Translations under genes and position numbers: made by a program
Source of the DNA: a virus
Direction: 5' to 3' (one strand)
DNA: 64,000 nt
Virus record (IMG/VR): IMGVR_UViG_3300017991_000003
Coordinates: 128,001 to 192,000 of that record
In this document: piece by piece, positions 4,412-35,047 of the stretch
Layout: each line of letters begins with the position of its first letter
How positions within the stretch are numbered: position 1 is the stretch's first letter
The notes under the pieces: model-generated
What the model saw: the letters and a program-made list of their open reading frames with translations, nothing else
Database searches by the model: none
What the model was told of the DNA's origin: nothing

Positions 4412-4448
4412 TCTAAAAAGAGAGCCCAACCCGAGGGGGTTGAGCTCT
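4412..4448 (-). terminator. putative intrinsic terminator (leftward)
   Basis: Imperfect ~12-bp stem (AGAGCCCAACCC / GGGTTGAGCTCT) followed on the minus strand by a T-run (CTCTTTTTAG); lies between the tRNA unit and the next leftward promoter motif. Confidence 0.4.
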
Positions 4449-5003
4449 CTGGAAGTGCCCGGGCCCGCCCCTTTCATCGCAGTCCAACGAGTGGGACAAG
4501 GGGGATGCCGTAAGGGCCCGGGCTTGTAGGTGCGGAGCCGTGCCAGGATCACGGCCCCGCGGTGCTGTGGAAGTAGCTTGGCCCCCCAAGGAGGTGGGAT
4601 GAGCCGCCGTAGCTACGATGAGGCTCGCAGTCGGGCATGGTGCTACCCGGCCAACAGCGTGGCGATACGCCGAGACCCGGATCGCCGCCGGATAAGGTGG
4701 CCCCCGTCGTGACGTGCTCAGCTCACGCTCGAGGGGTTGGAAGACCTGCCATCTAGGATCAGTGGGATCCCCATCCCTTTGCACTCCTCGGAGAGTGTGC
4801 CGCTCCTGCGGCTGATGTGATGGCAGGTGGAAGACACCCACAGGTAGCAAGAACCGGCCTGGATGACCTCTTCGTTGCCCTAGGACCGGGGTCAGAGCCT
4901 TCCGGGCGCGCCTGTGGGTGATTGGGAAAGCCGAGCACGTCATCAACGCCGCTTGTGCGTCTGCTTGGTTGGTGGAGACGTGTGACGCTGCTCGGCTTTT
5001 GTA

Positions 5004-5090
5004 TGGTGCAGGAAGGGGGACTCGAACCCCCACGCCCGGGTGGGCACGTGGACCTAAACCACGGGCGTCTACCGATTCCGCCACTCCTGC
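5004..5090 (-). tRNA. tRNA-Leu (anticodon TAG)
   Basis: Minus-strand sequence folds as a cloverleaf: 7-bp acceptor stem GCAGGAG/CTTCCTGC, anticodon stem CGTGG/CCACG with loop TTTAGGT (anticodon TAG), long variable arm, T-arm GGTTCGAGTCC, encoded CCA. Confidence 0.8.
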
Positions 5091-5164
5091 ATGTAAAGGC
5101 ATCGATGACCCGTGGGAGAGTTTCCCCACTCTGTGTTGAGCCCACAGATCATCGATGTGATTGA

Positions 5165-5250
5165 TGGTGCGGGAGGAGGGACTCGAACCCTCACGCCCGA
5201 AGGCAGTGGATTTTGAATCCACCGTGTCTACCGATTCCAACCACCCCCGC
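5165..5250 (-). tRNA. tRNA-Leu (anticodon CAA)
   Basis: Minus-strand cloverleaf: acceptor GCGGGGG, anticodon stem GTGGA/TCCAC with loop TTCAAAA (anticodon CAA), long variable arm, T-arm GGGTTCGAGTCCC, encoded CCA. Confidence 0.8.
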
Positions 5251-5432
5251 AGAGGGAGTGCCCCGCCGGCCGGAGCCGACGGGGCGAGTGCCTGTCTTTC
5301 CAGACTGTCCGCCCCGTTCGTATCATGCGCTAGGGGCTCTCGACAGTTCACTACGCCGCCATGCGGACGTCGGTGTTGGCATTTGAAAGCCAGAAGGTAC
5401 AGACGCCACCGGGCAACTATTCTCTGCTCGTA

Positions 5433-5504: not shown

Positions 5505-6125
5505 TCAGAAGTCGGGACGCAGCGTGTCTGCCGCGATCAACGTCAACTCCGGAGCGGACGGAGCTCCGGTCACGACAGCCTGGGGATCCATCTGCGCCAC
5601 GGAGTGCAGCTCGTGCGTCTCCATGAGTCTAAGTAGCGCAAAGAATCCGTAGGCGCGCAGCTCGTCCTCTTCTGAGTCGGAGCGCGGCGCGTGCCTGATG
5701 AGGGCCCCCGGGACGAGGTCTGCGTCGGACAGCACCACCCAGTGATCTGTCCAGACAATCGGCTCCAGTTGAGGAACCAGCTGCGAAGCCACCAGGTCGG
5801 CTAGCCCTTCACTCAGCGGGAAGGGACGCTGAGGAGCGCACAGGTGCGTAAGCTCATGTGCGATCACGAAGCGCTGCCGGTACGGCGGCTGATCAAGCCA
5901 GTTCGGATGGAGCACGAGGTAGACCTCGTCCGCGGCATGGGCCACCAGAGCAAGCCTGTCGATCTCACTCGACACGCACACCTGGGGGACCACACCTCGG
6001 TCATGCCCGATCATCTGCACCACCTGTGGACGCAGTTCATCGAGCAGACCCTCAGCACGCTCGACGGCTGGGTGAGCGCTGGCGCAGGCAGCCAGCGGCA
6101 GGCAGGAGATGATCAAGGACTTCAC
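5505..6125 (-). CDS. putative secreted Zn-metallopeptidase (HExxH motif), GTG start
   Basis: Contains VIAHELTHL (HExxH); N-terminus from the GTG start (VKSLIISCLPLAACASA) looks like a signal peptide; GTG overlaps the stop of the upstream lipoprotein gene; the longer track ORF 5505..6275 has an Arg-rich N-terminal extension judged spurious. Confidence 0.5.
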   Translation of the reverse strand: MKSLIISCLPLAACASAHPAVERAEGLLDELRPQVVQMIGHDRGVVPQVCVSSEIDRLALVAHAADEVYLVLHPNWLDQPPYRQRFVIAHELTHLCAPQRPFPLSEGLADLVASQLVPQLEPIVWTDHWVVLSDADLVPGALIRHAPRSDSEEDELRAYGFFALLRLMETHELHSVAQMDPQAVVTGAPSAPELTLIAADTLRPDF

Positions 6126-7024
6126 GGGATCGGAACCCCCTGCTTCTCGATGGTCAGCGGGGTCACGAACCGCTCGCCCTGCGCGTACTGCATCAGGTCG
6201 AAGCGGATGCTCTCGAGCAGTCCCTCGCTGCCGAGGGGTAGGAGGCCGGCGTCGATGACGACCTCGCTGCCCCACAGCGCGGAGCCGGCCCGGGTCTTGG
6301 ACCAGGCCAGGGCGTGCTGGCTGCCGTCTTGGTAGCCGAGGCTACCGCTGGCGACCATGTCGGAGCTGTCGTTCAGCGCCCGGATCAGGAGCTTGCCCTG
6401 CCCGTGGTCGACGTAGGCGGTGACGGTGTAGGCCCAGAGAACGTCGTCGATCAGCTGGTTGATGGCCCAGTCCTCGCCGCCTGTGAGGTACCAGGCCTGC
6501 ACGATGGCGTGGGCCTCGACCTCGCTGGCGGCGGTCACCAGGAACTCACCGTAGGCGTCCATGTCGTCCTGGTGGTCGTAGGCGTCCACGGACGTCAAGG
6601 AGACCAGGAACTGCTGGAGCTCGTGGGGCTTGCTGAGATCGATGATCACCTGGTTGCCGCCGAGGGGACCGGACGTGGGTCGGCCGACGAGCTCGAGCTG
6701 CTGGGTCGCGTCGGCCAAGGTGCCTGAGAAGGTGGTGACCACGGAGCCCTCCGGAAGGAGGACCGCCGTACCGGGGGCGTACACCCCGGCGTAGCGGGCG
6801 CCGGACTTGGTGATGACCTCGACCCGGAGGTTGGTCGGGATGTCGGCCGGCACGTCACCTTGGAGGGTGCCGTCACCCTTCTTCTCCAGGCTGGCTTCCC
6901 AGCCCGAGAGCTGGACGGTGATGCCGTCACCCTCTTCGAGGTCGAGGACTTCCTCAGTCGCCGTACAGGCGACGAAGCTGAACATCAGCAGGATGAGGAG
7001 GATGAACGTGTGTTGGATGCGCAT
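6122..7024 (-). CDS. putative secreted lipoprotein (300 aa)
   Basis: Start chosen at internal ATG giving MRIQHTFILLILLMFSFVAC (hydrophobic signal with lipobox-like Cys); the track ORF extends to 7129. Confidence 0.55.
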   Translation of the reverse strand: MRIQHTFILLILLMFSFVACTATEEVLDLEEGDGITVQLSGWEASLEKKGDGTLQGDVPADIPTNLRVEVITKSGARYAGVYAPGTAVLLPEGSVVTTFSGTLADATQQLELVGRPTSGPLGGNQVIIDLSKPHELQQFLVSLTSVDAYDHQDDMDAYGEFLVTAASEVEAHAIVQAWYLTGGEDWAINQLIDDVLWAYTVTAYVDHGQGKLLIRALNDSSDMVASGSLGYQDGSQHALAWSKTRAGSALWGSEVVIDAGLLPLGSEGLLESIRFDLMQYAQGERFVTPLTIEKQGVPIP

Positions 7025-7589: not shown

Positions 7590-7618
7590 TTGACAGAGGG
7601 GCGCCGGCTAGGCACGAT
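7590..7618 (+). promoter_or_regulatory. candidate sigma70-like promoter (-35 TTGACA, 17-nt spacer, -10 CACGAT) for the rightward operon; predicts near-leaderless mRNA
   Basis: Perfect TTGACA hexamer 17 nt before a weak -10 that ends ~7 nt before the ATG at 7626. Confidence 0.3.
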
Positions 7619-7625
7619 CCCTGGC

Positions 7626-8141
7626 ATGGAAACGACAACGACAGAGGCCCGCCCTGAGCTACAGCTTCGGCCGTTGGCCGGGCGGGTGATGATTCGAGTG
7701 GACGAGGCCCCCACGATGAGCGCAGGTACGCGAGGCCGTCAGGTCTATCTACCCGAGAGCGTCCAGAAGGAGGAGAAGGCGAACTACCGGTTCGGTACGG
7801 TCGTGGCCCTAGGGGACCCCGCGCTGCATCCGAAGACCGGCAGGCCGATCCCGTGGGCTGTGCATGTAGGCACCAAGGTCTGCTTCCAGTTCGGGGCTGA
7901 CCTTACAGGTGAGCGAGAGCTCCAGTACACAGGAGGCGTGGCCCATGCGGTGTGCTTTGCTGAGGATCTGATTTACGCCATCGAGGATGATTATGAGATT
8001 CAGCCGACTCCCGTATGCCCCAACAGCGTAGGGGTTGCGCTACGCCGCGCTCTGATGAACGACGACTGGCTGACCGAGGAGCAGGTTGACACCCTGAGCC
8101 GGCGGCTCGCGTGCACGATTGCCGGGGTTGTGCCCGCGTGA
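7626..8141 (+). CDS. GroES/Cpn10-like co-chaperonin with C-terminal extension (171 aa)
   Basis: Internal ATG of track ORF 7344..8141; sequence LRPLAGRVMIRVDEAP...SAGT...GTVVALGDPAL...VHVGTKVCFQFGA...EDLIYAIED parallels the GroES pattern (RPLxDRVxV...SAGG...GxVVAVGxG...VKVGDxVxF...SDILAIxE). Confidence 0.6.
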   Translation: METTTTEARPELQLRPLAGRVMIRVDEAPTMSAGTRGRQVYLPESVQKEEKANYRFGTVVALGDPALHPKTGRPIPWAVHVGTKVCFQFGADLTGERELQYTGGVAHAVCFAEDLIYAIEDDYEIQPTPVCPNSVGVALRRALMNDDWLTEEQVDTLSRRLACTIAGVVPA

Positions 8142-8776
8142 GAATCGGCCGCACTTCCGATCTAGCGCCCTGGCCGCTCTTCATCGGCTTCTACACCCCG
8201 GAGTACGAGGAAGAGGCCGGGGAGCTTCGTAAGACCCTGGACGCGTTCGGGCTGCCACACGAGATCGAACCCGTCGAGTCCACGGGTAGCTGGTGGCTCA
8301 ACACGCAGATCAAGGCTCAGATCATTTTGCTCAAGCTACGGGATCACCTGGGTCGACCGCTGGTCTACCTGGACTGCGATGCCCGAGTCAGGCAGGCTCC
8401 TACCTTGTTCCGCTCCCTGCATCACCAGTGCGACTTCGCGGCTCACTTCCGACCGGATCGACGATTCGAATGCGGTCGAGAGCTTTTGAGCGGGACGCTG
8501 TACTTCAGCGGCTCGCCGGCTTGCCAGGGCCTGGTACAGGCTTGGATCGATGAGAATGAGCGCCAGGCTGCGATCAAGAGTAGCAACAAGCTCCGCCTCA
8601 TGGATCAGAGAACCTTGCAGACGGTCCTGGCTAAGGAGATCGAGGAGTACGGTCTTATGTTCACCGAGCTCCCTGCTACCTACGTTCAGATCTTCGACAT
8701 CATGCGCGACGCCGGCGACCCGGTGATCGAGCATCTCCAGGCCAGCCGCCGATTGAGGAACAAGGTTGGTCACTAG
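8111..8776 (+). CDS. putative nucleotide-sugar glycosyltransferase (GT-A fold, GT8-like)
   Basis: LVYLDCD (DxD-like) and MDQRTLQTVL (DQxxLN-like) motifs; alternative GTG start at 8138 would overlap the upstream stop by 4 nt. Confidence 0.5.
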   Translation: MHDCRGCARVRIGRTSDLAPWPLFIGFYTPEYEEEAGELRKTLDAFGLPHEIEPVESTGSWWLNTQIKAQIILLKLRDHLGRPLVYLDCDARVRQAPTLFRSLHHQCDFAAHFRPDRRFECGRELLSGTLYFSGSPACQGLVQAWIDENERQAAIKSSNKLRLMDQRTLQTVLAKEIEEYGLMFTELPATYVQIFDIMRDAGDPVIEHLQASRRLRNKVGH

Positions 8777-8788
8777 ACTCATGACTCA

Positions 8789-9547
8789 ATGAAGCGACTG
8801 ATCTACCAGGTCTGCGTTGGCCCGCCTGACCCGCTCTACGACAAGTGCACGCGCACTGTTGCGGCCTACTGCAAGCGCCTCGGCATCGCGTACATCAAGC
8901 AGACCGAGCCGGTCCTGAAGATCCGCCCGAACCCCGCTACGAGCGGGAGAAGCCAGAACGCTGTTGAACGACTAGGGTACCTGCCGATCTTCGAGAAGGA
9001 GAACGCACTCGCCCACCTTGGTGAGTTCGATCAGGTGGCCATTATCGACTCCGATATCTGGATCAGGGAGGAGGCACCCAACATCTTCGAGGAGCTCGAG
9101 GAGGGTGTTGACTTCATGGGGGTGGTCGAGCGAACCGCACCCATCACGCCGCAGTATGATCGGAAGCTCAAGAGCTACGCGCGCGGCCAGTACGGTCGTC
9201 CGGACTTCCCCTTCATGAACATGGGGCTCATGCTCATGAACAAGAGCCTGCGCCGCTTCTGCCCCGAGCCTCCTCGGGAGTTTCTGGCGCGTCCGGAGTT
9301 CCAGGCCTTCGTGGATGGGCGGGGGGCCTACAAGTGGAGCACGGACCAGACCCTGCTCAACACCTGGTTGACCAGCGATCCCGACATGGTCGTGAAGCCT
9401 CTCGACTGGCGGTGGAACGCCCTGTACGGGGCGCTGGTGCCCGGGTCGATAGAACAGGCCCACTTCGTTCACTTCTTCCTCAAGAACCACCTGGATAGCC
9501 AGGATCCCGACAAGCTCCTTCAGACACAAGGCCGCAAACGCGTTTAG
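8789..9547 (+). CDS. putative glycosyltransferase (GT8-like, nucleotide-diphospho-sugar transferase)
   Basis: AIIDSDIW (DxD), STDQTLLNTWL (DQxxLN-like) and C-terminal HFVHFF, as in GT8-type enzymes. Confidence 0.55.
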   Translation: MKRLIYQVCVGPPDPLYDKCTRTVAAYCKRLGIAYIKQTEPVLKIRPNPATSGRSQNAVERLGYLPIFEKENALAHLGEFDQVAIIDSDIWIREEAPNIFEELEEGVDFMGVVERTAPITPQYDRKLKSYARGQYGRPDFPFMNMGLMLMNKSLRRFCPEPPREFLARPEFQAFVDGRGAYKWSTDQTLLNTWLTSDPDMVVKPLDWRWNALYGALVPGSIEQAHFVHFFLKNHLDSQDPDKLLQTQGRKRV

Positions 9548-9551
9548 CCCC

Positions 9552-10229
9552 ATGAGCAAAGTACCACCCCTATTCATTCACGTACCGAAGACCGGTGGCA
9601 TGTCCGTGCACCATGGACTAGGCCGCCTGATCCGAGAGACGCTGTCTCGAGACAAGCTGAAGTCTCTGGACTACGCGGCGACGATCGAGCAGCACATGCG
9701 CTCCAAGGGTGAGCCTACTCCGGGGTACCGTCATGCCCGGTGGCGTGACGTCAAGCCGGGGTGGCGGGATAAGGGCCGCTGTTTCACGGTGCTGCGCAAT
9801 CCGTGGTCCCGTGTGGTCAGTCGCTACCGGTTCGGACTCAATACCTGGGCGACGCGTCCCTACAACTACACGAACTTCGAGGAGTTTCTTGCGGAGCATG
9901 AGGAGTGGGGCCAAGAGCCGTACTACTGGCACCGCGCCGTGCGGGGCTGGTACCCTGCGGTGGATCACGTGACGGACGGCCAGGGCAACCTCAAGTGCGA
10001 TGTTCTGCGTACGGAGCACCTGGACGATGACATCTGGGCCTACTTCGGGAAGCGGCTACCTCCGCGCCGACGCAACGTCACGCGCGGCGATGCCGTGGAC
10101 TACAAGACCTTCTACGACGATCGAACCATCCAGCTGGTGGCAGACTGGTATGCCGAGGACATTGAGATGTTCGGCTTTGACTTCGACACGCCGGCGACGA
10201 AGAACCTGTGGGAGGGCCTAGGAGCATGA
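9552..10229 (+). CDS. sulfotransferase-family protein
   Basis: N-terminal FIHVPKTGG (5'-phosphosulfate-binding type motif) and VLRNPWSRVVSRY (3'-phosphate-binding RxPxxRxxS type motif). Confidence 0.7.
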   Translation: MSKVPPLFIHVPKTGGMSVHHGLGRLIRETLSRDKLKSLDYAATIEQHMRSKGEPTPGYRHARWRDVKPGWRDKGRCFTVLRNPWSRVVSRYRFGLNTWATRPYNYTNFEEFLAEHEEWGQEPYYWHRAVRGWYPAVDHVTDGQGNLKCDVLRTEHLDDDIWAYFGKRLPPRRRNVTRGDAVDYKTFYDDRTIQLVADWYAEDIEMFGFDFDTPATKNLWEGLGA

Positions 10230-10783
10230 TGGTTGGCAAGAACCAGGGCAGTCTCCTGGTTGTGCAGCAGATCCCAGAGAACAGCGTGGGTGCCGAGCTC
10301 GGCGTCTGGCGCGGGGACACATCAGCCCGCTTCCTAGCTAGCGGTAAGATCAAGCACTTGCACCTGGTGGATGCTTGGAGTCCCGACCCTTACTACGGCA
10401 TCGAAGGCTACCGAGAGAAGTACGCCAAGCTGGTCGGATCGGGTGATCTCGACGCCTTTCGCGCCTACTACGACGCGGTCCTAGCCGGTGTCCGCAGGCG
10501 GTTTCAAGGCCAGCCCGTTACGATCCACCAAACCACTGTGCACGAGTTTCTGACTGAGCCCCCGGAGGATCTCGACTGGGTCTACGTGGACGCGAGTCAC
10601 GAGTACCTCGACGTCCTTGATGATCTCGAGCGCTGTGCCCGTCACGTGGATCTGATCTTTGGGGATGACTACGGCAACAAGCCAGGGGTGGTTCGCGCTG
10701 TCGACGAGTTTGATCGGACGCACCCCGAGTGGCACCTCCAGGTCCTGGGCAAGAACCAGTACCGCCTCGATAGGAAGGTCTGA
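10226..10783 (+). CDS. class I SAM-dependent methyltransferase (TylF/macrocin-O-MT-like)
   Basis: GAELGVWRGDTSARFL glycine-rich SAM-binding region and VYVDASHEY; ATG overlaps upstream stop (ATGA). Confidence 0.6.
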   Translation: MMVGKNQGSLLVVQQIPENSVGAELGVWRGDTSARFLASGKIKHLHLVDAWSPDPYYGIEGYREKYAKLVGSGDLDAFRAYYDAVLAGVRRRFQGQPVTIHQTTVHEFLTEPPEDLDWVYVDASHEYLDVLDDLERCARHVDLIFGDDYGNKPGVVRAVDEFDRTHPEWHLQVLGKNQYRLDRKV

Positions 10784-11289
10784 TGCACCCATCAAGCAAG
10801 GCCAATATGAGGGAGGCCTGGGCACTCGTTCCCGACCCCCACCGCGTCGGGGACGTCCTTGATGTAGGCGGCGGTCGTGGCGGGGAATACCAGGAAATCT
10901 GGAAAGGGTGTGCTAGCTACCGAACGGCTGACATTGCAGGTGACTGCGACCTCTTGATGCCTGGTGAGTACGAGATTCCACTTCCGGATGATTCGATCGA
11001 TGTGGTGATTAGCGGCCAGACACTGGAGCATGTCCGCAACCCTTTCCGCCTCGTCACCGAGATGCGCCGGGTACTGAAGCCCGGTGGCTACGTGGTGATC
11101 ATCGCCCCGTCCGCGGGCCCGGCCCATTTCAAGATCGACTGCTGGCGCTTCGTCCGGGATGCGTTCCGGGCCATCGCCCACGAGTGCGATCTAGAGGTTG
11201 TTGCCGATTGGATCTATACCGGGGACTCTGGCCGAGGTCCTAACAAGCAGTGGAACGATCACACCTTCGTGGGGAGGAAGCCCGAGTGA
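10783..11289 (+). CDS. class I SAM-dependent methyltransferase
   Basis: VLDVGGGRG (motif I) and LKPGGYVVI (post-I) motifs; start overlaps upstream stop by 1 nt. Confidence 0.65.
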   Translation: MHPSSKANMREAWALVPDPHRVGDVLDVGGGRGGEYQEIWKGCASYRTADIAGDCDLLMPGEYEIPLPDDSIDVVISGQTLEHVRNPFRLVTEMRRVLKPGGYVVIIAPSAGPAHFKIDCWRFVRDAFRAIAHECDLEVVADWIYTGDSGRGPNKQWNDHTFVGRKPE

Positions 11290-11987
11290 ATGCGTATGCC
11301 ATCACGCTCTTCGGTAACGAGACCAGCACCCAGAGCGTTGACAAGCTCTTTGAGTCCCATGTGGCGCTTGAGCAGCATTTCGATCTGATCCGCTTCCCGG
11401 CCATCACTCCTGACCAGAACCAGGAGATCATGGCGGAGGAGCGCCTGGTGTGGACCTATCCCTGGGAAAACAACCGGCTGGATGGGATCACTGGCTTGAA
11501 GCTGCATCCCTACGCCACACGTGATCGGGGTGCGCGGATCGCCTGCTTCCTATCGCACTACCACCTCTGGAAGCTGGCCTGCGAGACTGGGGAGTGGGTG
11601 ATGATCCTGGAGGACGACACGGTATTCACCAAGCACCTAGACCTAGACAGCCTGCCTTACCGTGAGTGGAGCGCCGTCGGCATCAACAACCCACTAGGGG
11701 CGACGCGTCGAGCGCCTGTGTTCCACGACAAGGTCGTGGCGCAGCGTCCGACTCCGATCATCGAGACCCCGTGGGTTGATGATGAAGTCAGGACCCCGCA
11801 GGGGCTGGCCGGCCACAGTGCCTACATGATCAGCCCTGAGCTGGCTAAGGACCTGATCCATCGAGCCCGTCATGCGGGTTGCTGGCCTAACGACGCATTG
11901 ATGTGCAAGCAGCTGTACCCTGGGAAGCTCGGGGTCACAACCGAGTTCTACACCCGAGTCCAGCAGACCCCGAGTACTCTGGCATGA
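11286..11987 (+). CDS. glycosyltransferase family 25-like (LPS-type glycosyltransferase)
   Basis: GTG start giving VNAYAITLFG...; ACFLSHYHLWKL and ILEDDTVF resemble the GT25 signature; GTGA overlap with upstream stop. Confidence 0.6.
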   Translation: MNAYAITLFGNETSTQSVDKLFESHVALEQHFDLIRFPAITPDQNQEIMAEERLVWTYPWENNRLDGITGLKLHPYATRDRGARIACFLSHYHLWKLACETGEWVMILEDDTVFTKHLDLDSLPYREWSAVGINNPLGATRRAPVFHDKVVAQRPTPIIETPWVDDEVRTPQGLAGHSAYMISPELAKDLIHRARHAGCWPNDALMCKQLYPGKLGVTTEFYTRVQQTPSTLA

Positions 11988-12646
11988 AGGCGCGCGTCAT
12001 CACCCTGATCCACAACAAGCGATCTGTTCAGGTAGCGAATCGGTGCATTGAGAGCGCTGCAAGGTTCGGCGTTGAGGTTGATATCTTCCCGGCCATCAGG
12101 GCGGCGGATAACCCCAAGGCCCTGATGTTCGAGCGGAAGTTCTCGATGAAGGGGTTTGAGGACAATGAGTACTCGCGTCTTGAGCCGTGCCTGGCTACGT
12201 TCCTCTCCCACTCTCGCCTATGGGAGCTTGCGGTGCTGCTAAAGGAGGCAGTCCTGATCCTCGAGCACGACGCTGTGTTCCAGGCTCCGCTCCCGGAGAT
12301 GATCGAGGAGCGGGTGAAGATGCTCTGCAATCTGGGCAAACCGAGCTTCGGCTCCTTCAAGACCCCGAAAGAGGGGCTAGGCCCGTTCGTGTCCAAGCCC
12401 GGCGGCTATCTAGGCGGCGCCCACGCGTACCTGGTCCAGCCTGAGGCCGCTGAGGTGATGTTGGAGAAGGCCAAGACAGAGGCGGAGCCGGCCGATGTGT
12501 TCATCCAGAAGAAGCGCTTCCCCTGGATGACTGAGTACTACCCGTGGCCGGTGATCTGCGATGACTCCTTCTCCACCATCCAGAAGCCCGCAGGTTGCAC
12601 GGCCAAGCACAACAAGGTCGAGATCATCGATCAGGATGAATCGTGA
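11984..12646 (+). CDS. glycosyltransferase family 25-like, paralog of the preceding gene
   Basis: MKARVITLIHNKRS...ATFLSHSRLWEL...ILEHDAVF; ATGA overlap with upstream stop. Confidence 0.6.
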   Translation: MKARVITLIHNKRSVQVANRCIESAARFGVEVDIFPAIRAADNPKALMFERKFSMKGFEDNEYSRLEPCLATFLSHSRLWELAVLLKEAVLILEHDAVFQAPLPEMIEERVKMLCNLGKPSFGSFKTPKEGLGPFVSKPGGYLGGAHAYLVQPEAAEVMLEKAKTEAEPADVFIQKKRFPWMTEYYPWPVICDDSFSTIQKPAGCTAKHNKVEIIDQDES

Positions 12647-12879
12647 GGCTGCTAAGTCGCGCCTACTGGGCGGAGGTCGTCGAGTGCGACTACTGCCCTA
12701 ATCCTGAAGAACCGCCCGCGCTTGTTTGTGGTGTCTGCGGCGATACGGGGAAAGCCCCGCGATGGCGTCGGGCTTGGCGCGATGTCTTCCGGTGTAGTGC
12801 TCTGGTGGGCCATCCTGATAGGAGCCCTGCTTGTGGGGGCGTTGGCTCAGTAAAAACAACGCGTTGTTTTGTCGGGTAG
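12643..12879 (+). CDS. questionable small Cys-rich ORF (CxxC...CxxC)
   Basis: GTG-initiated ORF that reads through the first terminator palindrome; more AT-ending codons than neighbours; may be non-coding. Confidence 0.2.
   Translation: MRLLSRAYWAEVVECDYCPNPEEPPALVCGVCGDTGKAPRWRRAWRDVFRCSALVGHPDRSPACGGVGSVKTTRCFVG
12852..12869. terminator. perfect 18-bp palindrome AAAACAACGCGTTGTTTT (bidirectional intrinsic terminator candidate)
   Basis: Perfect palindrome with A-run and T-run flanks, at the convergence point of the rightward operon and the leftward block. Confidence 0.55.
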
Positions 12880-12883
12880 GTAG

Positions 12884-12903
12884 CTAAAACAACGTGTTGT
12901 TAG
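12884..12903. terminator. second near-palindrome CTAAAACAACGTGTTGTTAG
   Basis: Near-perfect palindrome 15 nt downstream of the first; tandem hairpins between convergent units. Confidence 0.45.
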
Positions 12904-12939
12904 GCACCCCAGCGCCCGAGGGCGCCGGGGGCCTGGTTC

Positions 12940-13197: not shown

Positions 13198-13376
13198 TTG
13201 CAGAGCAGCGGGTTCTTCCCCCGCTGCTTGATGCGGCGCACCCTCGCGCGGAGGGTGTGCTCGATGGAGAGGGGCTGCCCGCGGAGGCGGGAGGTGACGG
13301 CGATGTCTAGGCCGCGCATGGGGGAGATCTTCCCCCGGCGGACCTTGAGCATCACCTGGCGACTGAGATTGCTCAT
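13194..13376 (-). CDS. hypothetical small basic protein (60 aa)
   Basis: Track ORF; 4-nt overlaps at both ends with neighbours. Confidence 0.4.
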   Translation of the reverse strand: MSNLSRQVMLKVRRGKISPMRGLDIAVTSRLRGQPLSIEHTLRARVRRIKQRGKNPLLCK

Positions 13377-13573
13377 GTGGTCAGGTGGTCGGCGAAGGCC
13401 CAGGTGACGGCCTCCGCGAAGTTGGGGGTGAGGGTGGCGTAGCCCGTCTCTACGTGGGAGACGTGGGACTGACTGAACCCGATACGCGCAGCGAACTGCG
13501 CTTGGGACAGGCCCAGCCCCTTCCTGATCCAGCGGACCAGGCGGGGGCTGAGCTCGACGGTGGTGGCGATCAC
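13373..13573 (-). CDS. XRE-family helix-turn-helix transcriptional regulator (66 aa)
   Basis: LGLSQAQFAARIGFSQSHVSHVETG matches the Cro/C1-type HTH pattern. Confidence 0.65.
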   Translation of the reverse strand: MIATTVELSPRLVRWIRKGLGLSQAQFAARIGFSQSHVSHVETGYATLTPNFAEAVTWAFADHLTT

Positions 13574-26984: not shown

Positions 26985-27531
26985 GATCGACCTCCTTCAT
27001 GTAGGGCTCCTTGTGAGTGTGCCGGCCGGTCATGGTCTGGCAGTCGATGAGGCGAGCAGGCCTGAGAGCCGATACACGCGGCCAGTACAGGTGGTTACCG
27101 ACGAGGACGAGGTAGGACACGTGATTGCGTCCGTACCCGCCTCCGAGCTTGGCAGTGCTGTAGCGATCGAGGCCCAATCTCTTGAGCTTGTCGTTCAGCA
27201 GCCCGCCGTGAGAGCACTGACCACGTGTCGGACGCACGCCTGCCGGGACGATCGCAACGACCTGTCCGGTCTTCTGAGTGGTGTAACCACTTGAGGAACT
27301 CTTCCAGGTCACCCTGGACCCGACGATGAAGTCAGACTGCAACTCCTCTGTGTGCTGCTTAGCCAGAAGGAGGAGCTTCTCGACACCGCGCGGAGCGTGC
27401 TTCTTGAGGAACTCATCGAGCTCTCGTAGGTGTATCGTCTCGGTCGCGCAACCAGTAGCTGCGATCGTGAGGCGGGGAGGCAAGATCACATCGTCTTGGA
27501 TGTGAACTTGGTCAGTGAAGTGGTGCTCCAT
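26974..27531 (-). CDS. hypothetical protein (185 aa), paralog of 26075..26578
   Basis: Internal ATG (MEHHFTDQVH) of track ORF 26974..27906; its start overlaps the stop of the lipoprotein gene. Confidence 0.55.
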   Translation of the reverse strand: MEHHFTDQVHIQDDVILPPRLTIAATGCATETIHLRELDEFLKKHAPRGVEKLLLLAKQHTEELQSDFIVGSRVTWKSSSSGYTTQKTGQVVAIVPAGVRPTRGQCSHGGLLNDKLKRLGLDRYSTAKLGGGYGRNHVSYLVLVGNHLYWPRVSALRPARLIDCQTMTGRHTHKEPYMKEVDRVC

Positions 27532-28145
27532 CAGAAGCCTCCGAACAGGGAGTTGGCATTGTCGATCCGCAGCGCCGCGGCCACGGTTTCGAAGCCTCCG
27601 GAGAACTCGCTTAGGGCGCGAGCGATCAAGGCATCGGCATCGGCGGCAGTCATGGGGCTGTTGAGATCCCGACAGATAAACACGCCAAAGAAACCACCGC
27701 CATCCTCGAAACTGGAGAACGTCAGCCGCGTGACGCCGCTGATGTTGTTGTAGGTGACCAAGGCGCGCTCCCGCTGGGACTCGGTCAGCAGCGGGTTGAG
27801 GGGGCGGGCGGCCATCAGGAGCAGTCGGGGCACCTCGTTCTCTACCTGAGGCTCGTCGATCGCGCCGCTGAGGAAGAAGAGGGTGCCTTCGACTCGTTCG
27901 GTCCACCCGAAGGCGGTGCTCTGGTCTTCTCCCTCGGTGATGGGGATGACGGCCTCGCGGTGCTTGAAGGCTTTCGAGATCTCGCGAGCGTTGGCCTTGG
28001 TCGTGAAGTCCTCGTTGTAGTAGTAGGTGTCCTTCTCAGCCGGCACGACTGCCAGCTGACCTTGGAGAGGCGACTTCTGGTCGGAGGACAGGCAGGTGAT
28101 GAAGAGCGAGGCGACGAGCGTCAGTGCGAGGTTGGTGTATTTCAT
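27531..28145 (-). CDS. putative lipoprotein (204 aa)
   Basis: N-terminus MKYTNLALTLVASLFITCLSS: hydrophobic signal followed by lipobox-like Cys. Confidence 0.6.
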   Translation of the reverse strand: MKYTNLALTLVASLFITCLSSDQKSPLQGQLAVVPAEKDTYYYNEDFTTKANAREISKAFKHREAVIPITEGEDQSTAFGWTERVEGTLFFLSGAIDEPQVENEVPRLLLMAARPLNPLLTESQRERALVTYNNISGVTRLTFSSFEDGGGFFGVFICRDLNSPMTAADADALIARALSEFSGGFETVAAALRIDNANSLFGGF

Positions 28146-32901: not shown

Positions 32902-32989
32902 GGGCTGGTCTTAGGAGGAAGGCCTGGCTCGCAGTGCAAGATAGACACCGCTACGAGGCTTGTCAACATTCCTATACGACCTTCTAGGC

Positions 32990-35047
32990 ATGGTTCCTGG
33001 CCGACTCGGTGTCTATAATCCGTTGAGCCTGCGCACCTTAGACCCGGAGCACGCAAACAAGATGGCGGCCGAAACTCCGAATAGGTTCAGTGTCCCAGTT
33101 GAGACGCTGATCCTTCAACTGCTCGAGGAGCAGCACCCTCAACTACATGTCGCCCCCGGGTCGGCTACCTATGACACCCTCGTCACCCCGATGGCGTTGG
33201 TGCTTCAGCCGTTCCGCGACTACCTGCGCGTGATTCAGAGGAACCAGAGCCTCAAGAACGCGCAGACCATGCTGCCCGAGGAGCTGGACCGCCTGGCCAG
33301 TAACTTCCTGGTCGACCGTCGCCAAGGTACCAAGGCACTCGGGGTTCAGCGGGTGCTTTTCCCCACGCTCCAGCAGGTGTCCGTGCCGGCTTCCGCGCGC
33401 TTCACGGACGACAACGGCAACAGGTACCAGCCGGTGACCTCGGTTCAGGTGAGCACCACCACCTTGGCTAATAACGTGGTGGCTGCTACCGGGGAGTACT
33501 ACGTGGATGTCCCGGTCATCGCTGAGCAGCCTGGGGAGGGCAGCGCCGCCCTCGCCGGGGCTGTGACCCAGTTCAGCGGTATTCCCGGAGCGGCACGTAC
33601 GTTCAACGCGTCTGACTACTTCCAGGGCTCGGCTGGCGAGAGCAACAGCCAGCTCGTGGCCCGCATCAAGAGCAGTGTGGCTAACCGAGAGCTGGTCAAG
33701 GCCGCCTCGATCGAAGCCCTCCTGCTTGAGACTTTCCCCAGCATCAGGGACCTGGCTGTCCGGGGCTATGGGGATAGTCTGATGACCCGCGATACGGTGG
33801 ATGTGGTCCTGGCCAGCCACAAGCTGTTCGAGCAGAGCTTTGCCCAGAAGGTGAACCTACCTCTGGACTCTGAGGGCGAGGTTCAGTGGATCACGGACGC
33901 TGGAGAGGAGATCACGGCCCCCATCGGCGGGTTCGTGGGCGCTGTCTACGACCTGACGGGTAAGGACTTCAACGCCCTCAACGTCACCTTGGACGGCCAG
34001 ATCTACGAGGTCGTGAGTGCCCAGCCGGGCAACAAGCTCCGCTTCCTGAACTCGGACGACCCCGACGCGGTCAACAACGATTACCGCATCACCCGCGTCG
34101 AGGAGGTGCCTGTGGCCCCCGGCGGGGACGCTGTGAAGGTCTTGCGGCTCGATCGAGCGCTCTCTGATACCGCTGAGGTCGACGTCTCCACCAATCTCGA
34201 CAGCGTGCCGTATACCGTGATCGGCCGGTTCAATACCAGCCGCTTCCATGTGGGCGGTAAGGTGGATGTCTACGTGGACTCCACAGCTGATATCGAGCAG
34301 ACGGTCACGGTCAGCAACCTACCCGCGGTCAACGACCAGACCCTGGATGTGGGCGAGATCCCGCTGACTCAGAGCTTCATCAACGACAACGGCGCCAACC
34401 TTTTCGAAGGTAACACAGGCTTTACAGCTCCGGTAATCGCTGTGACCAAGGTCGAGCAGCTGGATCCCACCAACAGCAGCGTAGTGATTCGGGAGCTCAC
34501 CCCTGACGTCCACTACGTCCAGGTCACCGCAGCGAGCCGCGGCCGCTTCACGCAGGCCACCAACGACGTACTGGTCATCCGAGGTACCGAGGTTGACCCA
34601 GTCACCGGCGAGGAGGTCCCTCTCTTCGTGGGGCAGCGGCTCAAGGTCACCTACATCACCAACCCGGACATTCCTTTGATTCAGGACTTCGTAGATGCCT
34701 CGGATCAGAGGGACTTGACCAAGGACATTCAGATCCTCACGCCGACCGTGGTGCTCTTGAATCTGGATCTTGAGTACGCAGGTACCTTGCCTGTGGGTGA
34801 TGTTCAGACGATCATCAGGGAGTACATCGAATCCAAGGGCCTCGGCGCCTCGGTCTCGGTGAACGAGATCGTCACGGTCCTCTCTTACTTCGGGGTTACG
34901 GACGTCACCATGCCGGTACGCCTACGCAGCCGACAGGCCACAGGAAGCGGCTCCTTCACTTTCAACGAGAGCGAGGATCGCCTCTCCGTCGACAGCAACT
35001 CGGTGTTCGTGCCTGACTCGGGCCTGAACATCACCAAGGTCGGGTAA
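32990..35047 (+). CDS. putative baseplate-type structural protein (assignment tentative)
   Basis: Long ORF directly preceding the giant fibre gene; start ambiguous (track TTG 32960, ATG 32990, ATG 33062); baseplate call based on gene order and loose resemblance only. Confidence 0.5.
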   Translation: MVPGRLGVYNPLSLRTLDPEHANKMAAETPNRFSVPVETLILQLLEEQHPQLHVAPGSATYDTLVTPMALVLQPFRDYLRVIQRNQSLKNAQTMLPEELDRLASNFLVDRRQGTKALGVQRVLFPTLQQVSVPASARFTDDNGNRYQPVTSVQVSTTTLANNVVAATGEYYVDVPVIAEQPGEGSAALAGAVTQFSGIPGAARTFNASDYFQGSAGESNSQLVARIKSSVANRELVKAASIEALLLETFPSIRDLAVRGYGDSLMTRDTVDVVLASHKLFEQSFAQKVNLPLDSEGEVQWITDAGEEITAPIGGFVGAVYDLTGKDFNALNVTLDGQIYEVVSAQPGNKLRFLNSDDPDAVNNDYRITRVEEVPVAPGGDAVKVLRLDRALSDTAEVDVSTNLDSVPYTVIGRFNTSRFHVGGKVDVYVDSTADIEQTVTVSNLPAVNDQTLDVGEIPLTQSFINDNGANLFEGNTGFTAPVIAVTKVEQLDPTNSSVVIRELTPDVHYVQVTAASRGRFTQATNDVLVIRGTEVDPVTGEEVPLFVGQRLKVTYITNPDIPLIQDFVDASDQRDLTKDIQILTPTVVLLNLDLEYAGTLPVGDVQTIIREYIESKGLGASVSVNEIVTVLSYFGVTDVTMPVRLRSRQATGSGSFTFNESEDRLSVDSNSVFVPDSGLNITKVG
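33015..33024 (+). promoter_or_regulatory. candidate -10 element TATAAT for the rightward structural operon
   Basis: Perfect TATAAT in a GC-rich divergent region ~40 nt upstream of the ATG at 33062; no convincing -35; could instead lie inside the CDS if the start is 32990. Confidence 0.25.

What the first reader, a model, noticed from the sequence alone, without database searches (positions are those of the whole stretch)
7626..12646. Eight-gene translationally coupled operon: GroES-like co-chaperonin plus a glycan synthesis and decoration cassette
Gene order is GroES-like, GT-A/GT8-like, GT8-like, sulfotransferase, SAM methyltransferase, SAM methyltransferase, GT25-like, GT25-like. Almost every junction is an ATGA/GTGA-type start-stop overlap, so the genes are probably co-expressed. 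Four glycosyltransferases plus sulfation and methylation capacity suggest synthesis of a decorated oligosaccharide. The target is unknown: it could be the virion itself or a host surface polysaccharide (receptor masking, superinfection exclusion). Sulfotransferases in phage-like elements are uncommon, and the pairing with a dedicated co-chaperonin is unusual.
Basis: partly seen in the sequence, partly recalled or inferred. Interest (0 to 1): 0.75.

Follow-up and report, generated by a model that had tools for sequence, protein, structure and literature searches.

The report
Phage glycan-building operon led by GroES
A large uncultured phage carries a tightly packed eight-gene operon: a GroES-like co-chaperonin, four sugar-adding enzymes, a sulfate-adding enzyme and two methyl-adding enzymes. 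Its six-gene core is a sugar-chain module found in hundreds of uncultured aquatic phages but in no cultured phage or isolate bacterium, and its target is still unknown.

Summary
Eight same-strand genes at 7626-12646 are coding-like and tightly packed: five 1- or 4-nt overlaps and two gaps of 4 and 12 nt.

- **Enzyme assignments:** six are confirmed by Pfam above its cut-offs (Cpn10, Sulfotransfer_2, Methyltransf_24, Methyltransf_11, two Glyco_transf_25). Gene 2 is a GT-A enzyme nearer PF03407 than GT8. Gene 3 is a GT8-clan retaining GT-A by predicted fold (pLDDT 92.9).
- **Localisation:** all eight proteins are soluble. No flippase, polymerase or lipid-carrier enzyme is present.
- **Conservation:** the operon is conserved in two sister lineages, with a conserved promoter-like element placed 7 nt before the GroES start codon.
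- **New point:** genes 3-8 are a virus-restricted module. A GT8-like gene sits first and a GT25 pair last, with a variable middle of sugar-nucleotide, methyl- and sulfotransferase genes. At least 545 IMG/VR loci carry the GT8-like gene, mostly from uncultured T4-like aquatic phages. None of the 79 fetched outside this clade has GroES or gene 2.

The GroES pairing is therefore synteny specific to this clade, not part of the module. Overlapping junctions are a habit of the whole genome.

The target is unresolved. I favour virion proteins (about 0.4) over host envelope glycolipid (about 0.3) and DNA glycans (about 0.1).

The parts
7590..7618 (+). Promoter-like element: TTGACA (7590-7595), 17-nt spacer, CACGAT (7613-7618). 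It ends 7 nt before the g1 ATG, so the mRNA may be leaderless or nearly so.
   Evidence: Read from the sequence. The TTGAC/TTGAT hexamer, the spacing and the CAC..T hexamer are conserved upstream of g1 in L006 and L004. It is the only exact match in the window. The strict sigma-70 scan did not call it. Function is inferred, not shown.
7626..8141 (+). g1: GroES-like co-chaperonin, 171 aa. Residues 13-120 form a complete GroES domain whose mobile loop is 4 residues longer than in E. coli GroES. Residues 121-171 are a tail with no counterpart in GroES.
   Evidence: Pfam Cpn10 27.7 bits against a 21.1 cut-off. PDB sequence hits to Cpn20 and Cpn10. hhalign of the g1 family against a GroES profile: 99.4%, E 5e-22, over the whole of GroES. 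Alignments. The AF2 model failed (pLDDT 40 from a 3-sequence alignment).
8138..8776 (+). g2: GT-A nucleotide-sugar glycosyltransferase, 212 aa, PF03407 (Nucleotid_trans)-like. DxD motif at D79/D81.
   Evidence: No Pfam hit of its own. 185 homologues, many carrying PF03407. D79, D81 and H199 are invariant. No transmembrane segment.
8789..9547 (+). g3: retaining GT-A glycosyltransferase of the GT8 clan, 252 aa. DxD motif at D87/D89. It is the 5' 'bookend' of the widespread viral module.
   Evidence: More than 2000 homologues, a few carrying PF01501. Invariant DxD. AF2 pLDDT 92.9. Foldseek top PDB matches: XXYLT1, UGGT catalytic domain, PBCV-1 A64R, WbbM and LgtC. Viral GT8/GT34-like matches.
9552..10229 (+). 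g4: PAPS-dependent sulfotransferase, 225 aa. It has the 5'-phosphosulfate loop HVPKTGGMS and the 3'-phosphate motif RNPWSRVVSRY.
   Evidence: Pfam Sulfotransfer_2 27.0 bits against a 22 cut-off. phrog_3347, E 4e-9. Both motifs are invariant or nearly so in 13 viral orthologues.
10226..10783 (+). g5: class I SAM methyltransferase, 185 aa, Methyltransf_24 (the TylF/CmcI sugar-O-methyltransferase neighbourhood).
   Evidence: Pfam 35.2 bits against a 26.3 cut-off, with a weak TylF match. Orthologue in T4-like locus L010 at 38% identity, in the same position.
10783..11289 (+). g6: class I SAM methyltransferase, 168 aa, Methyltransf_11. Motif I is VLDVGGGRG.
   Evidence: Pfam 52.6 bits against a 21.2 cut-off. 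In L010 the same position holds an unrelated methyltransferase.
11286..11987 (+). g7: GT25-family glycosyltransferase, 233 aa, with an ILEDD motif. First gene of the 3' 'bookend' pair.
   Evidence: Pfam Glyco_transf_25 49.1 bits against a 24 cut-off. Weak PDB hits to GT25 proteins and COLGALT1. Motif conservation in 45 orthologues.
11984..12646 (+). g8: GT25-family glycosyltransferase, 220 aa, with an ILEHD motif. It is a paralogue of g7 at about 26-28% identity.
   Evidence: Pfam 38.4 bits against a 24 cut-off. The EHD motif is invariant in 25 orthologues. Paralogy shown.
12853..12935 (.). End of the operon. Two copies of the 16-nt palindrome AAAACAACGYGTTGTT (12853-12868 and 12886-12901) can pair into a 16-17 bp stem. 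A GC-rich hairpin follows. The region lies between two convergent transcription units.
   Evidence: fold z-score -4.6; 3 pattern matches against 0 expected by chance. L006 has GC-rich hairpins at the same place. A terminator or operator role is inferred.

Best explanation
This is one transcription unit of a large uncultured contractile-tailed phage, of about 175-193 kb.

**What it encodes**
- A phage GroES-type co-chaperonin.
- A self-contained, soluble glycan-building set: four Leloir-type GT-A glycosyltransferases (one PF03407-like, one GT8-clan retaining, two GT25), one PAPS-dependent sulfotransferase and two SAM methyltransferases.

**What is shown**
- The gene structure.
- The enzyme families, with intact catalytic motifs.
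- The absence of transmembrane segments.
- The absence of any initiating phosphoglycosyl transferase, flippase or polymerase.

**What is inferred**
- During infection the enzymes work in the cytoplasm on an acceptor that already exists.
- They add a short oligosaccharide of up to about four sugars from host nucleotide sugars, then cap it with O-methyl and sulfate groups.
- Genes 3-8 are a virus-restricted module. It has fixed first and last glycosyltransferases and an exchangeable middle, so different phages would make different glycan 'types'.

**My best guess for the acceptor**
It is the phage's own virion proteins, as in mycobacteriophages, chloroviruses and mimiviruses. Expression would coincide with morphogenesis, when a GroES-type factor is needed to fold the capsid protein. 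I read the GroES gene as sharing the promoter, not as part of the glycan chemistry.

**Confidence**
About 0.85 for the enzymology and the operon, and about 0.4 for the virion target. The 0.4 in the confidence field is for the full statement.
For: **Gene structure and families**
- Structure, packing and coding signal.
- Families.
- Motifs.
- No hydrophobic 19-mer above 1.22 on the Kyte-Doolittle scale.

**One unit with its own signals**
- The conserved promoter-like element is kept in three lineages even though the upstream neighbours differ in L004.
- Hairpins lie at the 3' end.

**A virus-restricted module**
- All eight genes are collinear in L006 at 53-75% identity. L004 keeps g1, g2, g3, g7 and g8 and swaps the middle.
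- L010, which shares its gene order with a 72-kb T4-like contig (PhoH, RNR, RNaseH), has g3-g4-g5-[another methyltransferase]-g7-g8 at 38-51% identity. T4-like L008 has g3...g7-g8 with a different middle.
- At least 545 IMG/VR loci encode a g3 relative. In most of the fetched loci that hold at least about 6 kb downstream, a g7 or g7/g8-like gene follows g3.
- The variable middle is a sugar toolbox: NDP-sugar epimerases and dehydratases, RmlD, a DegT aminotransferase, UDP-galactopyranose mutase, further GT8 and GT25 genes, three sulfotransferase families, and CmcI-, FkbM- and MT11-type methyltransferases.
- Only 13 loci were found in 185,579 species genomes. All are MAG contigs of GC 0.31-0.43 labelled with unrelated phyla, and most carry the same module.
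- There is no g3 homologue in 50,697 GenBank phage records.

**Pointers to a virion target**
- g2-like genes (45-47% identity) sit about 1 kb downstream of a Mu-gpT-like major capsid gene in three small high-GC phage contigs (L091, L092, L114). Tail-tube genes were detected downstream in L092 and L114. Other sugar-modifying genes lie beside the g2-like gene in L091 and L092.
- The cassette always lies just upstream of the block that holds the 1262-aa protein, the baseplate wedge and the giant fibre-like proteins.
- PBCV-1 A64R, a capsid-glycosylating enzyme, is among the best structural matches of g3.
- A virus-restricted module with conserved end enzymes, spread across phages of GC 0.31-0.63, suggests an acceptor supplied by the virus rather than by very different hosts. 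This last point is inference.
Against: - No virion protein in the window could be identified as capsid or tail tube. No glycosylation-prone tail or collagen-like repeat was found.
- The characterised bacterial members of GT8 and GT25 build LPS/LOS outer cores on the cytoplasmic face of the membrane. They are also soluble or peripheral, so the lack of transmembrane segments does not discriminate.
- In T4-like phages the module sits among replication and nucleotide-metabolism genes (gp32, RNR, RNaseH, PhoH), not among head genes.
- The capsid-adjacent evidence concerns g2 only, in 3 of the 82 loci examined. My structural seeds could detect only one type of head module.
- GT8-like GT-A enzymes with the same top PDB match (A64R) are known to extend glycans on 5hmC in phage DNA.
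- Nothing here measures expression timing.
Confidence: 0.4

Rival explanations
1. Host envelope remodelling. The enzymes act at the inner face of the host membrane on lipid A-core (LOS/LPS) or another lipid-linked glycan. They add a methylated, sulfated outer-core extension, which the host's own machinery exports. This changes the cell surface during infection: it could exclude superinfecting phages, or stop progeny adsorbing to infected cells and debris.
For: - GT8 (LgtC, WaaI/J/O) and GT25 (LgtB/LgtE, Lic2A, LpsA) are the classical LOS/LPS outer-core families (established knowledge). LgtC and WbbM are among the fold matches of g3.
- This is the published reading of GT8-rich clusters in pelagimyophages and cyanomyophages (PMC7029224; PMC12801897).
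- The variable-middle, O-antigen-like toolbox is what diversifying selection on a receptor glycan would produce.
- The early-region location in T4-like phages suits an early-acting function.
Against: - The module is virus-restricted. It is essentially absent from 185,579 species genomes, rather than repeatedly captured from host LPS loci.
- The same end enzymes occur in phages of GC 0.31 to 0.63, whose hosts should have very different cores.
- The host of this phage is unknown and may lack LPS.
- g2-like genes sit inside head modules.
- There are no membrane or export components.
Confidence: 0.3
2. DNA glycan hypermodification. [quoted passage not shown]
For: - Phage GT-A enzymes of GT8-like fold, whose top PDB match is PBCV-1 A64R as for g3, add second and third sugars to 5hmC-linked glycans (Pyle et al. 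preprint).
- DNA would be an acceptor common to unrelated phages.
- In T4-like phages the module lies in the replication and nucleotide-metabolism region.
- g5 matches a PHROG labelled 'DNA methyltransferase'.
Against: - No TET/JBP-type dioxygenase, ThyA-type hydroxymethylase or C5-cytosine methyltransferase hits the window's larger ORFs: all but one of the called ORFs of at least 200 aa (27531-28145, minus strand) were scanned. None lies within 10 kb of the cassette in any annotated relative. Such pathways are usually clustered.
- The only thymidylate synthase nearby is a ThyX, about 16 kb away.
- Neither GT25 enzymes nor sulfotransferases are mentioned in that preprint (zero occurrences of either term), and I know of none in other DNA hypermodification pathways.
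- g5 and g6 are small-molecule or sugar-type methyltransferases.
- No enzyme here resembles a base-recognising first glycosyltransferase.
Confidence: 0.1
3. Functional GroES-glycan coupling. The GroES-like protein, with its extra C-terminal tail, is a dedicated folding or assembly factor for the transferases or for their glycoprotein substrate. On this reading the eight genes are one functional machine.
For: g1 heads the cassette with start-stop overlap in all three sub-lineages. It stays with the cassette although the upstream neighbours differ in L004. The g1 family has a C-terminal tail absent from GroES.
Against: - None of the 79 fetched viral loci outside this clade, and none of the 13 MAG loci, gave a g1 hit by tblastn. 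In the two loci whose upstream gene I translated (L008, L010), that gene is not GroES-like.
- None of the 79 fetched g2-like loci outside this clade gave a g1 hit.
- Overlapping junctions are the norm in this genome.
- The known role of phage GroES (T4 gp31) is capsid folding with host GroEL. GroES-only phages are common.
Confidence: 0.07

Closest known systems
LPS-like glycosyltransferase clusters of pelagimyophages and cyanomyophages (PMC7029224; PMC12801897)
   Same: These are clusters of soluble GT8, GT25 and other glycosyltransferases, with sugar-nucleotide enzymes, in large aquatic T4-like phages. Their function is untested. The g3...g7/g8 module found here lives largely in such uncultured T4-like phages.
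   Different: Those papers do not describe this architecture: a GT8-like gene first, a GT25 pair last, and a variable middle. 'Sulfotransferase' does not occur in either paper. No cultured phage in the 50,697-record collection has a g3 homologue. The present phage is not T4-like by sequence, has GC 0.63, and adds a GroES-like gene and a PF03407-like glycosyltransferase in front.
Virion glycosylation by virus-encoded enzymes: mycobacteriophage capsid and tail-tube glycans (Freeman et al. 2023, as summarised in PMC12619734), chlorovirus PBCV-1 A64R, mimivirus fibril glycans
   Same: Soluble, virus-encoded GT-A enzymes act in the cytoplasm on structural proteins. PBCV-1 A64R and mimivirus R699 are structural matches of g3. 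From my own knowledge, methylated sugars occur in chlorovirus capsid glycans.
   Different: No glycan has been demonstrated here. To my knowledge GT25 enzymes and sulfation are not reported for any virion glycan. Sequence identity to those enzymes is only 10-17%.
Bacterial LOS/LPS outer-core glycosyltransferases: LgtC and WaaJ/O (GT8); LgtB/E, Lic2A and LpsA (GT25)
   Same: The same CAZy-type families, the same DxD-type motifs, and soluble or peripheral enzymes that use nucleotide sugars.
   Different: Identity is about 10-14%. g3 has no sequence-level PDB or Pfam hit. The viral families are essentially absent from bacterial genomes. There are no waa-type neighbours.
Phage co-chaperonins: T4 gp31 and virioplankton GroES (PMC5649160)
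   Same: A GroES-only gene in a phage, with a Gly-containing mobile loop followed by a hydrophobic triplet (VYL). The loop is 4 residues longer than in E. coli GroES. From my own knowledge, gp31 also has a lengthened loop.
   Different: It has a C-terminal tail of about 50 residues and an 8-residue insertion not seen in GroES. The family is tiny: 3 homologues above 45% identity among 1.8 billion representatives. Its neighbours are glycan enzymes, not the kinesin-like and head genes reported for virioplankton GroES.
Phage DNA-glycan hypermodification clusters (Pyle et al., bioRxiv 10.1101/2023.12.21.572611)
   Same: Several successive GT-A enzymes, some of GT8-like fold, lie next to sugar-nucleotide enzymes in uncultured phages.
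   Different: The defining partners are missing near the cassette: a 5-methylpyrimidine dioxygenase or ThyA-like hydroxymethylase, and a C5-methyltransferase. That preprint mentions neither GT25 nor sulfotransferases (zero occurrences of either term).

Membership tests
GroES / Cpn10 co-chaperonin (g1) | Sequence membership: a Pfam PF00166 score above the gathering cut-off, and alignment over the whole domain | tested here: met
   27.7 bits against 21.1. hhalign 99.4%, E 5e-22, with g1 residues 13-120 covering GroES residues 2-96. NCBIfam equivalog cut-offs are not reached, so it is a distant member.
GroES / Cpn10 co-chaperonin (g1) | A mobile loop with a conserved Gly followed by three hydrophobic residues that bind GroEL | tested here: met
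   The loop reads ...TMSAGTRGRQVYLPE, with SAG followed by VYL. It aligns with KSAGGIVL of E. coli GroES.
GroES / Cpn10 co-chaperonin (g1) | A beta-barrel fold, a heptameric dome, and binding to GroEL | tested here: inconclusive
   The AF2 model from a 3-sequence alignment has pLDDT 40. Oligomer state and GroEL binding cannot be tested here. No GroEL gene was found among the window ORFs scanned.
Glycosyltransferase family 8 clan, retaining GT-A (g3) | Pfam PF01501 membership of the protein itself | tested here: not met
   No Pfam hit at E up to 1. Only about 5 of the 120 listed homologues carry PF01501. A profile search against PDB sequences found nothing.
Glycosyltransferase family 8 clan, retaining GT-A (g3) | A GT-A Rossmann-like fold with a DxD metal and nucleotide-sugar site, closest to retaining families | tested here: met
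   Model pLDDT 92.9. Foldseek probability 1.00 to XXYLT1 (GT8), UGGT (GT24), A64R, WbbM, LgtC and GT6 enzymes, with TM-scores of 0.47-0.57. D87 and D89 are invariant.
PF03407 Nucleotid_trans (GT77-like) GT-A (g2) | Pfam membership and a DxD motif | tested here: inconclusive
   g2 itself has no Pfam hit. About a quarter of the 120 listed homologues (40-50% identity) carry PF03407. D79 and D81 are invariant. No structure was predicted.
PAPS-dependent sulfotransferase, PF03567 (g4) | A Pfam score above the cut-off, plus the 5'-phosphosulfate-binding loop (PKxGxT/S) and the 3'-phosphate-binding motif (RxPxxRxxS) | tested here: met
   27.0 bits against 22. PKTGGMS and RNPWSRVVS are both conserved in 13 orthologues. 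The acceptor and activity were not tested.
Class I SAM methyltransferases (g5 PF13578, g6 PF08241) | A Pfam score above the cut-off and a glycine-rich motif I | tested here: met
   35.2 bits against 26.3, and 52.6 against 21.2. Motif I reads ELGVWRGD in g5 and VLDVGGGRG in g6. A sugar O-methyl acceptor is inferred only from the weak TylF/CmcI neighbourhood.
Glycosyltransferase family 25 (g7, g8) | A Pfam PF01755 score above the cut-off and the E-D/H-D acidic motif | tested here: met
   49.1 and 38.4 bits against 24. The motifs are ILEDD in g7 and ILEHD in g8. EHD is the viral consensus, invariant in g8 orthologues. PDB sequence matches to GT25 proteins are only marginal (E 0.07).
Wzx/Wzy- or ABC-dependent surface polysaccharide locus; gtrABC-type seroconversion | An initiating phosphoglycosyl transferase, flippase, polymerase or transporter, or membrane Gtr proteins | tested here: not met
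   None of the eight proteins has a hydrophobic 19-mer above 1.22. No such Pfam family appears in the operon, or among the 25 most frequent of the 62 families found in 88 representative genes of the module's variable middle.
Phage DNA-glycan hypermodification cluster | A neighbouring 5-methylpyrimidine dioxygenase or ThyA-type hydroxymethylase, with or without a C5-methyltransferase | tested here: not met
   No such family hits the window's larger ORFs; one called ORF of 204 aa (27531-28145, minus strand) was not scanned. None lies within 10 kb of the cassette in annotated relatives. A ThyX lies about 16 kb away. About 110 kb of the genome was not seen.
Operon (single transcription unit) | Same strand, short or overlapping junctions, a promoter at the front and a terminator at the end, and co-transcription | tested here: inconclusive
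   Strand and spacing are met. A promoter-like element conserved in three lineages and 3' hairpins are consistent. Co-transcription cannot be tested with these tools.

The most novel reading that the evidence does not exclude
Genes 3-8 represent a virus-restricted, modular glycosylation system that is so far uncharacterised. The first (GT8-like) and last (GT25 pair) enzymes are conserved, and the middle is exchangeable. On this reading the system gives phage particles, or phage DNA, type-specific glycans that are methylated and, in some lineages, sulfated. It would act as a viral 'serotype' layer, spread by transfer between unrelated lineages of large aquatic phages. Sulfated glycans on a virion would be new for bacteriophages.
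Probability: 0.35. Interest if true: 0.7.

Novelty: new variant of a known kind. Interest (0 to 1): 0.5.

Why it matters
Glycosyltransferase clusters in large marine phages are usually filed as 'LPS-related auxiliary genes' and left there.

The data here show something more specific. One architecture recurs in hundreds of uncultured viral contigs: a GT8-like gene, a variable set of sugar, methyl and sulfate enzymes, then a GT25 pair. It crosses unrelated phage lineages with GC from 0.31 to 0.63. It is essentially missing from cellular genomes and from cultured phages.

That distribution makes the open question testable: are these glycans for the host surface, the virion or the DNA? Any one phage carrying the module, or the operon expressed in a surrogate host, would do. 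If virions prove to be coated with sulfated, methylated glycans, views of adsorption, particle stability and recognition of phages in aquatic systems would change.

The GroES pairing itself is of minor importance.

Tried and rejected
- **Ninth gene (12643-12879, GTGA overlap, CxxC pairs):** rejected. Its GC1/2/3 pattern is not coding-like, and neither the public gene calls for this contig nor those for the L006 relative include it.
- **Structure of g1:** the AF2 model was unusable (pLDDT 40), because only three homologues may be submitted. I used hhalign instead.
- **Sequence and profile searches against PDB:**
  - The g3 and g2 families gave nothing.
  - g5 gave nothing.
  - g4 gave spurious designed-TIM-barrel hits and one weak SULT1C2 hit.
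- **DNA or protein similarity to 50,697 GenBank phage records:**
  - None for the cassette DNA, g1, g3, a T4-like-phage g3 homologue (P0104) or the 340-aa neighbour.
  - Only weak hits for g7, g4 and g2.
- **Collagen-type acceptor for the GT25 pair (by analogy with COLGALT1 and mimivirus L230):** no G-X-Y repeats in any real frame of the window, and no 2OG oxygenase in the operon.
- **Identity of the neighbouring structural genes:** PHROGs, Pfam and PDB searches found only a baseplate-wedge match at 32960-35047 and a weak tail-fibre match. I could not locate a capsid, portal, terminase or tail tube in the window.
- **'Moraphage' lineage (PMC12619734):** considered as the source clade and set aside. 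Its predicted hosts are mostly Bacteroidota and its genomes reach 307 kb. I saw nothing linking it to this GC-0.63 phage of about 175-193 kb, and I did not test the link directly.
- **A shared promoter class elsewhere in the window:** the conserved upstream motif has no other convincing copy.
- **Horizontal-transfer signal in base composition:** the cassette (GC 0.61) is within the range of the window.
- **Strict sigma-70 and terminator scans:** uninformative.

Full report

Yes. Between 7626 and 12646 the + strand carries eight consecutive ORFs. All have the codon-position GC pattern of real genes in this genome, which is 63% GC: GC3 is 0.72-0.83 and GC2 is 0.37-0.48.

The junctions are GTGA, a 12-nt gap, a 4-nt gap, ATGA, TGATG, GTGA and ATGA. 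That makes five overlaps out of seven.

A ninth ORF overlaps the stop codon of g8 (12643-12879). Its GC1/2/3 is 0.66/0.61/0.57, and neither the public gene calls for this contig nor those for the L006 relative include it. I reject it.

Overlapping junctions are not special to this block. Roughly 17 of 43 other same-strand junctions in the window have 1- or 4-nt overlaps.

**2. What the genes are**

Pfam supports six of the eight above its own cut-offs: Cpn10 (g1), Sulfotransfer_2 (g4), Methyltransf_24 (g5), Methyltransf_11 (g6) and Glyco_transf_25 (g7 and g8).

*g1.* This is a complete GroES domain. hhalign of its small family against a GroES profile gives 99.4% probability and E 5e-22 over g1 residues 13-120. 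The mobile loop keeps SAG followed by VYL and is four residues longer than in E. coli GroES. Residues 121-171 are an extra tail. The family is tiny: only three homologues above 45% identity among 1.8 billion representatives. Its AF2 model failed. The ATG at 7626 is the right start, because relatives begin there and the public call at 7716 removes the first strand.

*g2.* It has no Pfam hit. It has 185 homologues, many of which carry PF03407, and an invariant DxD.

*g3.* It has no Pfam or PDB sequence hit. Its model is confident (pLDDT 92.9). The model matches retaining GT-A enzymes of the GT8 clan: XXYLT1, the UGGT catalytic domain, PBCV-1 A64R, WbbM and LgtC. It also matches viral GT8/GT34-like proteins. 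Its DxD is invariant.

*g4.* It keeps both PAPS-binding motifs.

*g7 and g8.* They keep the E-D/H-D motif.

None of the eight proteins has a membrane-spanning segment.

**3. Boundaries and context**

Upstream, g1 diverges from a minus-strand block. The 75-nt spacer holds TTGACA-N17-CACGAT, which ends 7 nt before the ATG. The hexamers and the spacing are conserved in two sister lineages, so a leaderless or near-leaderless start is plausible. That is an inference.

Downstream, two copies of a 16-nt AT-rich palindrome and a GC-rich hairpin sit between convergent units. L006 has hairpins at the same place.

The window belongs to a contractile-tailed phage:
- A baseplate-wedge match of E 1.4e-17 lies at 32960-35047. 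Giant ORFs follow it.
- Relatives are in IMG/VR.
- The longest contigs that carry these genes are 175-193 kb.
- Most of the remaining genes have no match in Pfam, PHROGs or PDB.
- Replication and nucleotide genes (RNaseH/exonuclease, ThyX) lie to the left of the window.
- More giant ORFs lie to the right.

**4. Relatives**

Two sister lineages keep the operon.
- L006/L007 have all eight genes in order, at 53-75% identity.
- L004/L005 keep g1, g2, g3, g7 and g8. They replace the sulfotransferase and one methyltransferase with a GT8-like gene, a GT25-like gene and an unknown gene.

Uncultured T4-like aquatic phages also carry the core.
- L008/L009 (with gp32, gp51/gp53 baseplate genes and the gp33 co-activator nearby) have g3...g7-g8 with a different middle.
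- L010 has a collinear g3 - sulfotransferase - MT24 - another methyltransferase - g7 - g8 at 38-51% identity. It shares this gene order with a 72-kb contig that also carries PhoH, RNR and RNaseH.
- These loci have no GroES-like gene and no g2. In the two loci where I translated the upstream gene, it is unrelated.

Distribution of the module:
- A scan of IMG/VR found at least 545 loci with a g3 relative.
- In most of the 80 fetched loci that hold at least about 6 kb downstream, g3 is followed within 2-7 kb by a g7 or g7/g8-like gene.
- The stretch between them varies. It holds NDP-sugar epimerases and dehydratases, RmlD, a DegT aminotransferase, UDP-galactopyranose mutase, further GT8 and GT25 genes, three sulfotransferase families and several methyltransferase families.
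- The module is essentially virus-restricted. Only 13 loci occur in 185,579 species genomes. All are short MAG contigs of GC 0.31-0.43 labelled with unrelated phyla, and most carry the same module.
- No GenBank phage record has a g3 homologue.

g2 has a separate history.
- 191 IMG/VR loci in very diverse phages carry a relative.
- In three small high-GC contigs (L091, L092, L114) it lies about 1 kb downstream of a Mu-gpT-like capsid gene.
- In L091 and L092 its neighbours are GT2-like, pyruvyl-transferase-like and MT11 genes. A tail-tube gene lies further downstream in L092 and L114.

**5. Mechanism**

Shown: four nucleotide-sugar transferases, one PAPS sulfotransferase and two SAM methyltransferases are encoded. 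Their catalytic motifs are intact. All are soluble. No lipid-carrier initiation, flipping or polymerisation function is present.

Inferred: a short oligosaccharide is assembled and capped in the cytoplasm on a pre-existing acceptor.

The acceptor is not determined. I rank the candidates as follows.
- **Virion proteins, about 0.4.** The arguments are the capsid-adjacent g2 relatives, the position of the operon next to the structural block, co-expression with a capsid-folding-type co-chaperonin, the virus-restricted distribution, and the A64R-like fold.
- **Host LOS/LPS or another envelope glycolipid, about 0.3.** The arguments are the classical roles of GT8 and GT25, and the published reading for pelagimyophages (PMC7029224).
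- **Glycans on modified DNA bases, about 0.1.** GT8-like enzymes do this in some phages. However, no hydroxymethylase, dioxygenase or C5-methyltransferase lies near the cassette.

**6. The GroES pairing**

The pairing is conserved within this phage clade. It is absent from the other loci I fetched that carry the core module or g2. GroES-only phages are common (PMC5649160). The simplest reading is a shared promoter and shared timing, not shared chemistry. A dedicated role for the unusual C-terminal tail is possible but unsupported.

**7. Novelty and score**

Phage glycan gene clusters are a known kind. This one is a new variant in two respects. It adds sulfation and double methylation to a GT8/GT25 set. 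It also belongs to a recurrent, virus-restricted architecture that the papers I searched or read do not describe.

Function is untested, and the target cannot be decided from sequence. Interest is 0.5.

Noticed in passing
window 12853-12901 (and the GC-rich hairpin to about 12935): Two copies of an AT-rich 16-nt palindrome, AAAACAACGYGTTGTT, lie 33 nt apart in a 63%-GC genome. They occur nowhere else in the window (3 matches against 0 expected). They could be a bidirectional terminator stem or a pair of operator sites for the HTH protein encoded just downstream (13373-13573, minus strand).
   Followed up: partly
L011-L090, L173-L185 (IMG/VR and MAG contigs): The g3...g7/g8 glycan module, with its variable middle, occurs in at least 545 IMG/VR loci. 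Thirteen 'bacterial' MAG contigs assigned to unrelated phyla (Verrucomicrobiales, Rhodobacteraceae, Microbacteriaceae, Flavobacteriaceae and others) encode a g3 relative at GC 0.31-0.43, and most carry the same module. They look like phage contigs that were binned wrongly.
   Followed up: partly
L091 7006-7869; L092 8001-8546; L114: Homologues of g2 sit directly after a Mu-gpT-like major capsid gene in small high-GC phage contigs. In L091 the called protein P0137 even combines a capsid fragment with the glycosyltransferase, which may reflect a frameshift or a gene-calling fusion. A radical-SAM/SPASM gene lies nearby in L091.
   Followed up: partly
window 35054-45274: A 3406-aa ORF lies immediately after the baseplate-wedge gene. 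Its only match is a weak IPT/TIG hit. Further giant ORFs of 1410, 1512 and (beyond the window) 1724 aa follow. They are presumably fibres or host-recognition proteins, and would be candidate glycan acceptors.
   Followed up: no
window 50630-51346: A 238-aa protein with a clear PAS domain (E 8e-11) is embedded in the block of giant structural-looking genes. A sensor domain is unusual in that position.
   Followed up: no
window 5004-5250 (minus strand): Two tRNA-Leu genes (anticodons TAG and CAA) lie side by side. They overlap the long ORF 4413-5351, which one of the two public gene callers annotates as a 312-aa protein and the other as 177 aa.
   Followed up: no
window 7626-7715: The public (JGI/ENA) gene call for the GroES-like gene starts at 7716 and omits the first 30 residues. 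These include the conserved RPLAGRVMI strand. Relatives and the profile alignment support 7626.
   Followed up: yes
window 5505-6275 (minus strand) and 13373-13573 (minus strand): A protein with a weak IrrE/Peptidase_M78 motif and a small HTH_3 protein flank the operon on either side. Pairs of this kind often form phage or prophage switches. They are not adjacent to each other here.
   Followed up: no
LR756500.1 134035-137964; L153 (429-kb contig, GC 0.22): Uncultured huge phages of more than 400 kb carry a g2-like glycosyltransferase and a g4-like sulfotransferase within about 3 kb of each other. Sulfotransferase-containing glycan cassettes therefore also exist in megaphage-sized genomes.
   Followed up: no
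L187 18752-19609 (about 8.5 kb left of the window start): A ThyX-type thymidylate synthase and an RNaseH/exonuclease gene mark the replication and nucleotide region of the same phage. The glycan operon sits between that region and the structural block.
   Followed up: partly
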